Virus record (IMG/VR): IMGVR_UViG_3300036770_005052
Span: 32,001-96,000 of that record
DNA: 64,000 bases
Reading direction: 5' to 3' (one strand)
Source: a virus
Positions 29,546 to 31,363 of this stretch are shown here, in pieces. Numbering within the stretch: position 1 is the first letter of the stretch; each line of letters opens with the position of its first letter. The position numbers were made by a program, and so were the translations under genes. A model generated the notes under the pieces. It saw only the letters and a program-made list of their open reading frames with translations, did no database searches and was not told the origin of the DNA.

Positions 29546-29770
29546 ATGTTAGCACCCAGCTTAGTATTTGGTTCATTTTTAACCATATTATTTTTTATAG
29601 TTGGACTATTAGCGGGATGGGTTGCCAGAGAGTATATGTTAAATTATCAGGAAGTTCCGAAAATGCATCCTGAATTTTATGATAATCATGGGAATGTTAT
29701 TCCCGACGAAGTAATTGCATTTAGATTTGATAATAACTATGACTACGATGACACAGAAGACGAAGAATAA
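29546..29770 (+). CDS. small membrane protein
   Basis: GGAG ribosome-binding site; N-terminal hydrophobic helix; HPEFYD..GN motif. Confidence 0.75.
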   Translation: MLAPSLVFGSFLTILFFIVGLLAGWVAREYMLNYQEVPKMHPEFYDNHGNVIPDEVIAFRFDNNYDYDDTEDEE

Positions 29771-30359
29771 CGTCTCAGCACAAAAAGAAAAAATTAATTC
29801 AAAAAAGGTAGTTGTTGAAAAACCAATTACCGAACTTCCTGCAAATCCATTTGCATTTGAAGTTTTAAATTTAATTTCCAAACAAAGAAGTAATTCTAAA
29901 AAAATTGAACTTTTAACGAAGTATTCTGACGATTCTTTAAAAACTATTTTTATTTGGAATTTTGATGAGAGTATTATTTCGCTTCTTCCTCCAGGAGAAG
30001 TTCCATATTCTAGCGTAAGTGAACAAAATTCTTTCAGTGGAACAATCAGTGATAAAATTAGTGATGCTGTTGGAAAAATGAATGAAATGGGATCTGCATC
30101 ATTGGGATCTCAAGATCAAGGATACTCTTCTATTCGTAAAGAATATTCTAAATTTTACAATTTTGTAAAAGGTGGTAATGATAGCTTGAGTTCTCTTCGT
30201 AGAGAAACAATGTTTATCAACATTTTGCAAGGATTGCATCCTCTTGAAGCTGAAATACTTTGTTTGGTTAAAGATAAGAAATTAGAAACAAAATATAAAA
30301 TTACAAAAGAAATTGTTTCACAAGCTTACCCAGATATTATTTGGGGTGGAAGATCTTGA
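29739..30359 (+). CDS. conserved T4-like cyanophage hypothetical protein
   Basis: LPPGEVPY and RRETMFINILQGLHPLEAE motifs. Confidence 0.75.
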   Translation: MTTMTQKTKNNVSAQKEKINSKKVVVEKPITELPANPFAFEVLNLISKQRSNSKKIELLTKYSDDSLKTIFIWNFDESIISLLPPGEVPYSSVSEQNSFSGTISDKISDAVGKMNEMGSASLGSQDQGYSSIRKEYSKFYNFVKGGNDSLSSLRRETMFINILQGLHPLEAEILCLVKDKKLETKYKITKEIVSQAYPDIIWGGRS

Positions 30360-30700
30360 GGAAAGAATTAGTAAAAACTAAGGAGGAACTTGATGTTGTG
30401 GAATGGACAACTGAAGAAAAAACAAATTTACCTCCTAAGTATGGATGTCAGATTTTAGTTGAAAATGCCTCATATGAAGAACAAAGAGATACTTCTTTTC
30501 CTACTGATGCACATTTAGTATATTACATTGTAAATGAAAAATCCTATGTTGATGTGTGCAGGGGAACTAGAGTAAAAATTTTTGATTTGTATTATGATAA
30601 ATTTGGTTCTGGTGCAATCAAAAAAATATATTGGGGATATGGGAGAGTTAATCCTAAAATTTGGGGATATAAAGCACCCGAAAAGAAAAAAAGAAAGTAA
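30341..30700 (+). CDS. conserved hypothetical cyanophage protein (start uncertain)
   Basis: IFDLYYDKFG and GRVNPKIWGY motifs. Confidence 0.7.
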   Translation: MGWKILRKELVKTKEELDVVEWTTEEKTNLPPKYGCQILVENASYEEQRDTSFPTDAHLVYYIVNEKSYVDVCRGTRVKIFDLYYDKFGSGAIKKIYWGYGRVNPKIWGYKAPEKKKRK

Positions 30701-30760: not shown

Positions 30761-30776
30761 TGTAACATCTTATACA
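30761..30776. promoter_or_regulatory. NtcA binding site (tGTA-N8-TACa)
   Basis: TGTAACATCTTATACA matches GTA-N8-TAC with consensus flanks and lies just upstream of a sigma70 -35 box. Confidence 0.75.
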
Positions 30777-30784
30777 TAAAAAGC

Positions 30785-30813
30785 TTGCTATATAGATTGA
30801 ATAGGGTTATAAT
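30785..30813 (+). promoter_or_regulatory. sigma70 promoter TTGCTA-17-TATAAT
   Basis: 17-nt spacer; predicted start site (~30820) falls just before the riboswitch 5' end. Confidence 0.75.
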
Positions 30814-30823
30814 AATCCTCTAA

Positions 30824-31035
30824 CGTTCATCCCTTTGGGACGGAAGTAAGCCGACTCGGAACGGATCGTTCATCTATGGAAACACTCATTCTGACATGCT
30901 TACAAGCACACTTAATTGCTGGGAGAGTTCATCAACAGAACATTTCCAAACAGGTAAAGAATGATTTAATTTGGGAAATAAAACAGATCTCTCCAAAGGA
31001 GTGTAAAATAGACGCAAAAGCCGACTGAAGGAACG
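30824..31035 (+). ncRNA. double glnA-type glutamine riboswitch
   Basis: Two CGUUC/GAACG P1 sets, P2 stems UCCC/GGGA and UCUAU/AUAGA, E-loop strands GGAAGUAAG and CUGAAG; upstream of a YRGV peptide gene. Confidence 0.78.
30876..31028 (+). CDS. 50-aa peptide encoded inside the riboswitch (METLILTCLQAHLIAGRVHQQNISKQVKNDLIWEIKQISPKECKIDAKAD)
   Basis: Uninterrupted ATG..TGA frame spanning the P2 loop of aptamer 2. Confidence 0.55.
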   Translation: METLILTCLQAHLIAGRVHQQNISKQVKNDLIWEIKQISPKECKIDAKAD

Positions 31036-31067
31036 CTCTTTAACCTAAACCATTAAGGAGAAACCTA

Positions 31068-31202
31068 ATGTCTAAAGTCGTATATCGCGGTGTCGAATAT
31101 GATACCGAAGTTCGTCGCCAGCAACAGCAGGCACAACAGCAACCCCAACAATACAACGAAACCTATCGTGGTGTTAAGTTTGTGAAGGAGGGGCAAAAAT
31201 GA
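31068..31202 (+). CDS. DUF4278-like peptide, 44 aa
   Basis: AAGGAG ribosome-binding site; MSKVVYRGVEY...Q-rich...TYRGVKF with two YRGV motifs. Confidence 0.8.
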   Translation: MSKVVYRGVEYDTEVRRQQQQAQQQPQQYNETYRGVKFVKEGQK

Positions 31203-31300
31203 ATACTTACTTCGTTCGATATTTAAAAAGAAAAGCAAAGAAGGAACAACTCCTTCATAATGCACAACTGAATATGGCAAAGCAACCACAAATTGCTTGA
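31199..31300 (+). CDS. 33-aa basic peptide (MNTYFVRYLKRKAKKEQLLHNAQLNMAKQPQIA)
   Basis: ATGA overlap with the DUF4278 stop; AGGAGG ribosome-binding site. Confidence 0.65.
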   Translation: MNTYFVRYLKRKAKKEQLLHNAQLNMAKQPQIA

Positions 31301-31305
31301 TTTGG

Positions 31306-31332
31306 GAGGGGACTTGATCCCCTCTTTTTTTT
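31306..31332 (+). terminator. intrinsic terminator overlapping the next sigma70 promoter (TTGATC 31314 -17- TAAAAT 31337)
   Basis: GAGGGGA-cttga-TCCCCTC stem followed by a T8 run. Confidence 0.85.
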
Positions 31333-31363
31333 ATGCTAAAATGAATTGAAGTAACTATAAAGT

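What the first reader, a model, noticed from the sequence alone, without database searches (positions are those of the whole stretch)
30867..31035. A 50-codon ORF is encoded inside a riboswitch aptamer loop
Seen: P2 of aptamer 1 has a 3-nt loop, but P2 of aptamer 2 (UCUAU 30873-30877 / AUAGA 31008-31012) encloses ~130 nt. An ORF starts in the 5' arm (ATG 30876), crosses the loop and the 3' arm, and stops within the conserved CUGAAG strand (TGA 31026-31028). It has two Cys and a Trp. Inference: folding with Gln would sequester its start, while its translation would melt the aptamer. That would give mutually exclusive outputs (inner peptide at low Gln, DUF4278 at high Gln) or an attenuation-like switch. 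No clear SD precedes the ATG.
Basis: partly seen in the sequence, partly recalled or inferred. Interest (0 to 1): 0.85.

Follow-up and report, generated by a model that had tools for sequence, protein, structure and literature searches.

The report
Gene nested inside interlocked glutamine riboswitch
In this cyanophage, a glutamine-sensing RNA switch closes one of its stems around a complete, conserved 50-codon protein gene, so the ribosome and the folded sensor must compete for the same RNA; many related phages share the layout and I found no published description of it.

Summary
The ORF at 30876-31028 starts in the 5' arm (30873-30877) of a helix whose 3' arm lies 130 nt away (31008-31012), and it stops at the UGA inside CUGAAGG.

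The ORF is a real gene.
- All 86 unique insert-bearing units from phage contigs have an ATG 3-5 nt after CGTTCA and an open frame of 49-66 codons.
- dN/dS is about 0.24, length differences are whole codons, and two Cys are invariant.
- The family is phrog_504 (function unknown).

The helix that spans the gene covaries: 96.7% of cells are paired, and four of five pairs show compensatory changes.

The "two aptamers in tandem" reading needs correcting. Covariation shows two interlocked cores that share one helix (30849-56 with 31019-26). It also shows a long-range pair, G30843-C31036, that is Watson-Crick in 129 of 129 units. C31036 is the first base of the anti-SD that hides the ribosome-binding site of the DUF4278 gene.

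Translation of the nested gene must therefore unfold both cores, and the folded sensor buries its start codon. Which way the regulation runs (reciprocal outputs or coupling) is untested.

No paper I could search describes this. Earlier agents of this scan noted the same layout on other DNA.

The parts
30762..30775 (+). NtcA-type box GTA-N8-TAC upstream of the promoter
   Evidence: Read. GTAN8TAC lies within 100 nt upstream in 86 of 121 related units, against 4 of 121 in a control region, mostly 59-63 nt before GTTCA. Binding was not tested.
30785..30813 (+). Sigma-70-type promoter: TTGCTA, 17 nt, TATAAT. The predicted start is about 30820, just before the RNA element.
   Evidence: 10 of 12 matches. 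This is a consensus match only.
30824..30848 (+). 5' half of the outer sensor core: P1 5' strand CGUUC (30824-28), hairpin UCCC-UUU-GGGA (30830-40), junction CGGAAGUA (30841-48). G30843 is the equivalent of G23 in the solved structure.
   Evidence: Rfam match. G30843 pairs with C31036: this pair is Watson-Crick in 129 of 129 units, as C-G in 90 and G-C in 39.
30849..30856 (+). Strand d (AGCCGACU), the 5' strand of the helix shared by both cores. It pairs with 31019-31026.
   Evidence: 24 distinct d/k combinations with compensatory changes at both ends. The 5-6 nt versions cannot form local hairpins. The local-hairpin reading has 16 broken cells and no compensation.
30859..30871 (+). Inner-core P1 as a hairpin: GAACG-GAU-CGUUC. 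G30864 in the loop pairs with C31015.
   Evidence: The strands are invariant, so this helix is inferred from topology. The G30864-C31015 pair is standard in 122 of 129 units.
30873..30877 (+). 5' arm (UCUAU) of the helix that encloses the gene. It contains the A and U of the start codon.
30876..31028 (+). Nested gene: 50 codons, phrog_504 family, predicted helical hairpin with invariant C8 and C43.
31008..31012 (+). 3' arm (AUAGA) of the gene-enclosing helix. It encodes the residue before the terminal DAKAD.
31013..31026 (+). Inner-core junction CGCAAA (C31015) and strand k (AGCCGACU, 31019-26), the partner of strand d.
31027..31036 (+). Junction GAAG, outer P1 3' strand GAACG (31031-35) and C31036, the partner of G30843. 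The ORF's stop UGA (31026-28) overlaps the start of this block.
31036..31060 (+). Expression platform: anti-SD CUCUUUAA (31036-43) pairs with UUAAGGAG (31053-60).
   Evidence: It is in the predicted MFE fold (z = -2.5). The same helix, starting at the base after GAACG, appears in the related units that have C at that position.
31068..31202 (+). Downstream gene, 44 aa, DUF4278-like with YRGV motifs (phrog_5049).
   Evidence: Pfam 19.8 bits, below the 25.3 cut-off; phrog_5049, 3e-13.
31199..31300 (+). Third small ORF, 33 aa and basic, overlapping the DUF4278 stop (ATGA).
   Evidence: It is conserved in S-SRM01, DSL-LC02 and DSL-LC03.
31304..31333 (+). Intrinsic terminator-like hairpin with a T tract, closing the roughly 510-nt unit.

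Best explanation
The region is the leader of a small, self-contained cyanophage operon: promoter, glutamine sensor, three tiny genes, terminator.

The sensor has two glutamine-riboswitch cores that are interlocked rather than side by side.
- The outer core uses the first CGUUC with the last GAACG.
- It has the canonical junctions CGGAAGUA and GAAG.
- It has the long-range pair G30843-C31036.
- The inner core lies within the outer core's third helix. That helix (30849-56 with 31019-26) is shared by both cores.

One stem of the inner core (30873-77 with 31008-12) closes around a complete 50-codon gene. The gene encodes a conserved two-cysteine helical-hairpin protein (phrog_504).

Shown:
- The gene is under protein-level selection.
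- The helices that span it covary.

Inferred:
- A ribosome initiating at AUG 30876 must cover or melt the inner P1 hairpin and the 5' arm.
- A ribosome finishing the ORF runs through the 3' arm, the inner junction, strand k and the outer junction. Translation and sensor folding therefore exclude each other on one molecule.
- With glutamine bound, C31036 is held in its long-range pair. The anti-SD helix (31036-43 with 31053-60) opens and DUF4278 is translated, as proposed for the gifB leader. The same fold buries the nested gene's start.
- Without glutamine, or on nascent RNA before the 3' strands are made, the start is free. The nested protein is then made and its ribosomes reset the sensor.
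- The predicted result is a nitrogen-dependent choice between the nested protein and DUF4278.
For: Real gene:
- 86 of 86 unique insert-bearing units have an ATG 3-5 nt after CGTTCA and an ORF of 49-66 codons.
- Median dN/dS is 0.24. Entropy by codon position is 0.88, 0.46 and 1.19.
- Length differences are whole codons, and C8 and C43 are invariant.
- 35 of 39 members hit phrog_504, best E 5e-25.
- 284 clusters at 50% identity were found among 1.8 billion proteins.
- AlphaFold2 gives a two-helix hairpin at pLDDT 84.6.
- A free-standing homologue lies outside any aptamer at L130:590-799, upstream of a single compact aptamer and a DUF4278 gene.

Helix around the gene:
- 96.7% of cells are paired, with compensatory changes in four of five pairs.
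- At least 12 arm combinations occur.

Interlocked topology:
- The G30843-C31036 equivalent pairs in 129 of 129 units (C-G in 90, G-C in 39). The tandem pairings hold in about 70%.
- The d:k helix has 24 combinations with compensation. Its short versions cannot form hairpins.

Expression platform:
- The anti-SD begins at C31036. This matches the G23-C60 and RBS model quoted in PMC6212724.

Functional coupling rather than mere tolerance:
- There is no untranslated spacer or SD on either side. The AUG always touches the helix.
Against: - There is no expression, ribosome or ligand-binding evidence.
- Single-sequence folding does not recover the sensor fold (z = -0.8).
- The P1 strands are invariant, so the outer and inner P1 assignment rests on topology, not covariation.
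- The inner core lacks the canonical junctions (CGCAAA, and one C in place of GAAG). It may not bind glutamine.
- The stop codon lies 8 nt before the anti-SD, so a terminating ribosome may open the DUF4278 RBS. That would couple the two genes instead of opposing them.
- In published structures the ligand-free state keeps its helices, so the AUG may be partly buried at all glutamine levels.
- The G-C to C-G switch of the long-range pair may reflect few evolutionary events.
Confidence: 0.5

Rival explanations
1. Translational coupling rather than reciprocity. Ribosomes terminating at UGA 31026-28 unwind the anti-SD at 31036-43 and hand the DUF4278 ribosome-binding site to new ribosomes. The nested protein and DUF4278 are then made together. 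The sensor mainly gates initiation at the nested gene, or adds a second, glutamine-dependent route to DUF4278.
For: - The stop is 8 nt upstream of the anti-SD.
- In 79 of 86 units the stop falls at this same place in the core: +13 or +10 from the CGxAA core, depending on the length of strand k.
- UAA replaces UGA where the RNA reads CUAAAGG, so a stop is kept.
- One cluster representative is an in-frame fusion of the nested protein with DUF4278 (P0081).
Against: - The stop may be kept by descent and by RNA constraint alone.
- Seven of 86 units stop 5 nt before the core or run past it, in other frames.
- Coupling would make DUF4278 nearly constitutive and leave the conserved glutamine platform little to do.
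Confidence: 0.22
2. Regulation-neutral nesting. The variable hairpin loop is a permissive site into which a small gene was inserted, in the way homing-endonuclease ORFs sit in group I intron loops. The gene and the sensor work on different molecules or at different times, with no designed interplay.
For: - The loop of this hairpin has no conserved bases, and its length varies in compact units.
- Compact, ORF-free versions are common: 43 of 129 units, including S-PM2, Bellamy, P-TIM68 and S-CREM1.
- A free-standing homologue exists.
Against: - In 86 of 86 units the AUG is 3-5 nt after CGUUCA, with no SD or spacer. The frame runs up to or through the 3' arm. A merely tolerated insert would be expected to carry its own initiation region inside the loop.
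- The sensor parts and the long-range pairs stay under selection in ORF-bearing units. Folding must therefore still happen despite the ORF.
Confidence: 0.2
3. The open frame is not translated, and the insert is a structured RNA expansion of the hairpin.
For: - There is no SD.
- In the window's subgroup a second short helix (ACACUC with GAGUGU) extends the stem.
Against: - The coding signature is strong.
- The insert folds no better than shuffled sequence (z = -0.9).
- Extra end-to-end pairing is only slightly better than with mismatched partners (-6.7 against -5.3 kcal/mol).
- A free-standing homologue exists.
Confidence: 0.03

Closest known systems
Type-1 glutamine riboswitch (glnA RNA, Rfam RF01739), for example the gifB (IF17) leader of Synechocystis (PMC6212724). 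The structure with the G23-C60 pair is known here as quoted in that paper.
   Same: - P1 is CGUUC with GAACG.
- The junctions are CGGAAGUA and GAAG.
- There is a long-range G-C pair whose C begins an anti-SD.
- The downstream gene is of DUF4278 type.
- Translational ON control by glutamine is expected.
   Different: - The canonical parts lie 170 nt apart and enclose a second core and a whole gene.
- Rfam sees only the 5' unit, at the threshold (36 against 35 bits), and misses the rest.
Tandem ('pseudo-cooperative') glutamine riboswitch doublets, 157 of which are counted in the review PMC9481103
   Same: Two sequence-similar units lie in a row before one gene. The compact phage versions are probably among those doublets.
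   Different: The review treats them as independent riboswitches. Here the discriminating pairs cross between the units, and one stem holds a gene. The review mentions neither feature.
Leader ORFs inside sensing leaders, such as mgtL in the Salmonella mgtA Mg2+ leader (recalled from my own knowledge, not checked here)
   Same: An ORF lies inside a ligand-sensing leader, and its translation decides which RNA structure forms.
   Different: In those cases the act of translation matters and the peptide is short and poorly conserved. Here the product is a conserved 49-66 aa protein family with two invariant Cys and dN/dS of 0.24.
ORFs in peripheral loops of group I introns of T4-like phages, such as I-TevI in the td intron, where early translation disturbs ribozyme folding (recalled from my own knowledge, not checked here)
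   Same: A protein gene sits in a loop of a functional RNA fold, so ribosome traffic and RNA folding compete.
   Different: The host RNA there is a self-splicing ribozyme and the ORF a mobile endonuclease. Here the host RNA is a metabolite sensor and the ORF a small non-mobile protein linked to nitrogen-control genes.
phrog_504, called T4-like gene cluster 430 in the P-SSM7 record (PSSM7_205)
   Same: The nested protein belongs to this catalogued family of cyanophage hypothetical proteins.
   Different: The catalogue gives no function and no note that the gene lies inside a riboswitch stem.

Membership tests
Glutamine riboswitch type 1 (RF01739) | Score at or above Rfam's gathering threshold | tested here: met
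   30822-30867 scores 36.0 bits against 35. The second unit is not reported, because of the 130-nt insert. Its compact equivalents in S-CREM1 and P-TIM68 score 33.5 and 35.4.
Glutamine riboswitch type 1 (RF01739) | P1 helix CGUUC with GAACG | tested here: met
   Both copies of each strand are invariant in 129 units. Which 5' strand pairs with which 3' strand cannot be read from covariation.
Glutamine riboswitch type 1 (RF01739) | Long-range Watson-Crick pair equivalent to G23-C60 | tested here: met
   The pair is met only across the units. G30843-C31036 is paired in 129 of 129 units, with both C-G and G-C forms. Within-unit pairings hold in 70.5% and 69.8%.
Glutamine riboswitch type 1 (RF01739) | Conserved junctions CGGAAGUA and GAAG | tested here: met
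   The outer core has both (30841-48 and 31027-30). The inner core has CGCAAA and a single C, so it does not meet this feature.
Glutamine riboswitch type 1 (RF01739) | Selective binding of L-glutamine | not testable with these tools
   This needs in-line probing, ITC or a reporter assay.
Independent tandem riboswitch doublet | Each aptamer folds on its own, with its own local helices | tested here: not met
   Local third-helix hairpins are broken in 16 of 97 cells with no compensation, and are impossible in the 5-6 nt versions. The cross helix is compensated.
phrog_504 | Match to the family HMM | tested here: met
   The window's protein matches at E = 9.7e-4 and 19.8 bits over profile positions 10-52 of 53. 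35 of 39 aligned relatives match, best E 5.2e-25.
Attenuation-type leader peptide | Only the act of translation matters and the peptide sequence is free apart from key codons | tested here: not met
   dN/dS is 0.24, two Cys are invariant, the helix pattern is conserved, and a free-standing homologue exists.
DUF4278 (PF14105), for the downstream gene | Pfam gathering score | tested here: inconclusive
   19.8 bits against 25.3. It matches phrog_5049 at 3.2e-13. The YRGV motifs are present.

The most novel reading that the evidence does not exclude
This is a two-input, two-output RNA device. Glutamine and ribosome traffic on a gene built into the sensor jointly decide between two small proteins. 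The nested two-cysteine protein and the DUF4278 peptide would act on the same host target, for example glutamine synthetase or its regulators, in opposite or sequential ways during infection. It would be the first riboswitch whose aptamer contains a functional protein gene as a working part of the switch.
Probability: 0.3. Interest if true: 0.9.

Novelty: new variant of a known kind. Interest (0 to 1): 0.8.

Why it matters
- Riboswitch aptamers are regarded as compact non-coding domains upstream of the genes they control. Here a known aptamer class is split by a conserved protein gene and interlocked with a second core.
- Standard family scans see only a fragment of it, and a recent census counts such units as simple tandems.
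- If translation and ligand sensing really compete, this is a natural design for coupling a metabolite signal to a choice between two proteins on one short mRNA.
- It gives a direct experimental handle on how cyanophages read host nitrogen status, and on the unknown roles of DUF4278 peptides and of a widespread phage microprotein family.
- It also shows that covariance-model searches miss aptamers with gene-sized inserts.

Tried and rejected
- Cellular genomes: the one scan used a 14-base pattern that was too short for 596 Gb. None of the 120 returned loci holds the unit, so it says nothing about presence in cellular genomes.
- tblastn with a 54-aa relative found only one phage record. It is too insensitive for such short, divergent proteins. 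DNA searches and pattern scans worked instead.
- Protein function: Pfam gave no hit. Foldseek against PDB gave no match with E of 0.001 or better. The ESM Atlas feature search gave no usable hit.
- Single-sequence RNA folding does not recover the sensor. The whole element and the insert fold no better than shuffles.
- A longer helix between the two ends of the ORF is present in the window's subgroup. Over all units it is only marginally better than with mismatched partners, so I do not count it as part of the structure.
- A lipoprotein or signal-peptide reading of the hydrophobic N-terminus followed by Cys was rejected on the alignment. The residue before the Cys is mostly T, S, D or N, and there is no charged n-region.
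- The paper that first showed glutamine binding (Ames and Breaker 2011) is not held. I could not check whether it mentions large inserts.
- I did not run a complex prediction, because I do not claim that the proteins bind.

Full report
**What is in the sequence.**
- Rfam finds one glutamine riboswitch aptamer at 30822-30867 (36.0 bits, cut-off 35). A permissive scan adds nothing downstream.
- Right after that aptamer the sequence restarts with CGUUCAUCUAUGG (30867-30879).
- 130 nt further on lies AUAGACGCAAAAGCCGACUGAAGGAACGC (31008-31036).
- The ORF at 30876-31028 is 50 aa with C8, W33 and C43.

**Is the second unit an aptamer?**
- In S-CREM1 and P-TIM68 the same unit has a short hairpin in place of the insert. 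Rfam scores those units 33.5 and 35.4 bits.
- In the window the unit has the same ends with a 130-nt loop.

**Is the ORF a gene?**
- Four isolates carry it at the same place: S-SRM01, DSL-LC02, DSL-LC03 and P-RSM6. In three of them it is annotated as a hypothetical protein.
- I ran two pattern scans of viral contigs, one anchored on the 3' core and one on the junction between the units. Together with the phage records they gave 129 unique units. Of these, 86 carry an insert of 100 nt or more and 43 are compact.
- All 86 insert-bearing units have an ATG 3-5 nt after the second CGTTCA and an open frame of 49-66 codons.
- The proteins align with whole-codon length differences. They share two invariant cysteines and a conserved pattern of two helices.
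- In the window's subgroup the median dN/dS is 0.24. Variability by codon position is 0.88, 0.46 and 1.19.
- 35 of 39 diverse members hit phrog_504 (best E 5e-25; the window's own protein E 1e-3).
- A profile search of 1.8 billion cluster representatives finds 284 clusters. Nearly all are 44-116 aa.
- AlphaFold2 with the family alignment gives a two-helix hairpin (residues 8-20 and 25-37) at pLDDT 84.6.
- The model has no significant PDB match and the protein no Pfam family.
- A DNA search with the S-CAM8 version found 271 GenBank phage records that cover at least 80% of the unit.
- In P-SSM7 the gene is PSSM7_205, in 'T4-like GC 430'.
- One contig (L130) has a homologue that is not inside any aptamer. 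It overlaps the stop of the preceding gene. About 110 nt downstream of it lie a single compact aptamer and a DUF4278 gene. The protein is therefore a unit of its own, and it stays linked to this module.

**The terminal overlap.**
- The last residues (DAKAD) are simply the translation of the conserved core GACGCAAAAGCCGAC.
- Variants end earlier, at a stop inside the 3' arm, or read the core in another frame. The conserved protein proper ends near the second Cys.

**The helix around the gene.**
- The arms 30873-77 and 31008-12 pair fully in 83 of 88 insert-type loci, with at least 12 arm combinations.
- On the 129-unit alignment the helix is 96.7% paired. Four of five pairs carry compensatory changes, in 20, 41, 66 and 68 cells.
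- The insert itself folds no better than shuffled sequence.

**Tandem or interlocked?**
- Notes from earlier agents of this scan suggested that the two cores are nested and share a helix. I tested this.
- The long-range pair that PMC6212724 quotes as critical (G23-C60) maps to the third base of CGG/CGC and to the base after GAACG.
- In the window the first unit has G and G, and the second has C and C. Neither unit can form the pair on its own, but both cross pairs are Watson-Crick.
- Over 129 units, the first unit's base with the last base pairs in 129 of 129 (C-G in 90, G-C in 39). The within-unit pairs hold in 70.5% and 69.8%.
- The short 'third hairpins' behave the same way. Strand d (30849-56) and strand k (31019-26) form a helix with compensatory changes at both ends and in the middle.
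- 24 d/k combinations occur, among them AGUCG/CGACU, AGUCA/UGACU, GGACGG/CCGCCC and CGCCGACU/AGCCGACG. The 5-6 nt versions cannot form local hairpins at all.
- The local-hairpin reading has 16 broken cells and no compensation.
- The P1 strands never vary, so their partners follow from topology only.
- The resulting picture has two cores.
  - The outer core is canonical: 30824-48 together with 31027-36.
  - The inner core lies inside the outer core's third helix.
  - It has a hairpin P1 (30859-71), the gene-bearing stem, and the reduced junctions CGCAAA and C.
  - Its long-range pair C31015-G30864 is standard in 122 of 129 units.
- Whether the inner core still binds glutamine is open.

**Expression platform and transcription unit.**
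- C31036 is the first base of CUCUUUAA (31036-43), which pairs with UUAAGGAG (31053-60) just before the DUF4278 start at 31068 (z = -2.5).
- The same helix is present in the related units that have C at that position.
- This matches the model in PMC6212724, in which glutamine binding engages that C and frees the ribosome-binding site.
- Upstream lie a sigma-70-type promoter (30785-30813) and a GTA-N8-TAC box (30762-75). The box recurs in 86 of 121 units against 4 of 121 controls.
- Downstream lie the DUF4278-like gene, a 33-codon ORF and a terminator-like hairpin (31304-26).

**How it most likely works.**
- Shown: a gene under protein-level selection lies inside helices under RNA-level selection.
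- Inferred from geometry:
  - An initiating ribosome would cover about 30858-30893. That is the inner P1 hairpin and the 5' arm.
  - An elongating ribosome passes the 3' arm, the inner junction, strand k and the outer junction.
  - It stops 8 nt before C31036.
  - Translation therefore unfolds both cores, and the folded sensor buries the start codon.
- The AUG always touches the helix, and no SD or spacer is present in any of the 86 units. This argues for selected coupling rather than mere tolerance.
- I favour a glutamine-dependent choice. With the sensor folded and glutamine bound, DUF4278 is on and the nested gene off. With the RNA unfolded or still nascent, the nested gene is translated and the sensor is reset.
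- The main rival is coupling through the terminating ribosome, which could open the anti-SD.
- A neutral nesting cannot be excluded.
- A non-coding reading is very unlikely.

**Comparison and novelty.**
- The aptamer class, its tandem occurrence, the DUF4278 link and the protein family are each known (PMC2864571, PMC6212724, PMC9481103, PHROGs).
- I found no paper describing a gene inside the aptamer or the interlocked topology. The 2022 review counts 157 glutamine doublets as independent tandems.
- I could not read Ames and Breaker 2011.
- Earlier agents of this scan reported the same layout on other DNA. That is not independent evidence.
- I class this as a new variant of a known kind.

**Limits.**
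- There are no expression or binding data.
- The units are related, so cell counts overstate the number of independent events.
- The single scan of cellular genomes was wasted on a pattern that was too short.

Noticed in passing
window 31068-31300; L005:1625-1771; L127:1462-1629: The DUF4278-like gene and the 33-codon ORF after it look like one protein that is split or permuted. In S-CREM1 a single 48-aa product joins the YRG motif to the 'NWL..I....KE..L.EAQL' part. In S-CAM8 the order is reversed. Both window ORFs hit different halves of phrog_545.
   Followed up: partly
L130:590-799 and 905-1000: A homologue of the nested protein stands free, overlapping the stop of the preceding gene. A single compact glutamine aptamer and a DUF4278 gene follow. 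This may be a form from before or after the nesting.
   Followed up: partly
P0081 (116 aa): One cluster representative is an in-frame fusion of the nested protein with the DUF4278 peptide. W stands where the UGA stop normally lies.
   Followed up: no
window 30762-30775: An NtcA-type GTA-N8-TAC box lies about 52 nt upstream of the predicted transcript start. That is further out than the classical -41.5 position. It is conserved in 86 of 121 related units.
   Followed up: partly
L122: One contig has the nested ORF interrupted by an in-frame TAA after 20 codons. The riboswitch parts are intact. This is either decay or a sequencing error.
   Followed up: no
L081: In one unit the gene-bearing stem instead holds a roughly 40-nt duplicated A/U-rich segment with no ORF. 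It is intermediate in size between the compact and gene-bearing forms.
   Followed up: no
L006:1957-2142: In P-RSM6 a manA RNA (RF01745, 188 bits) follows the glutamine-switch cassette directly, before the transaldolase gene.
   Followed up: no
window 29715-30700: The two genes upstream of the cassette belong to DUF6433/phrog_461 and to phrog_485. Both are of unknown function.
   Followed up: no
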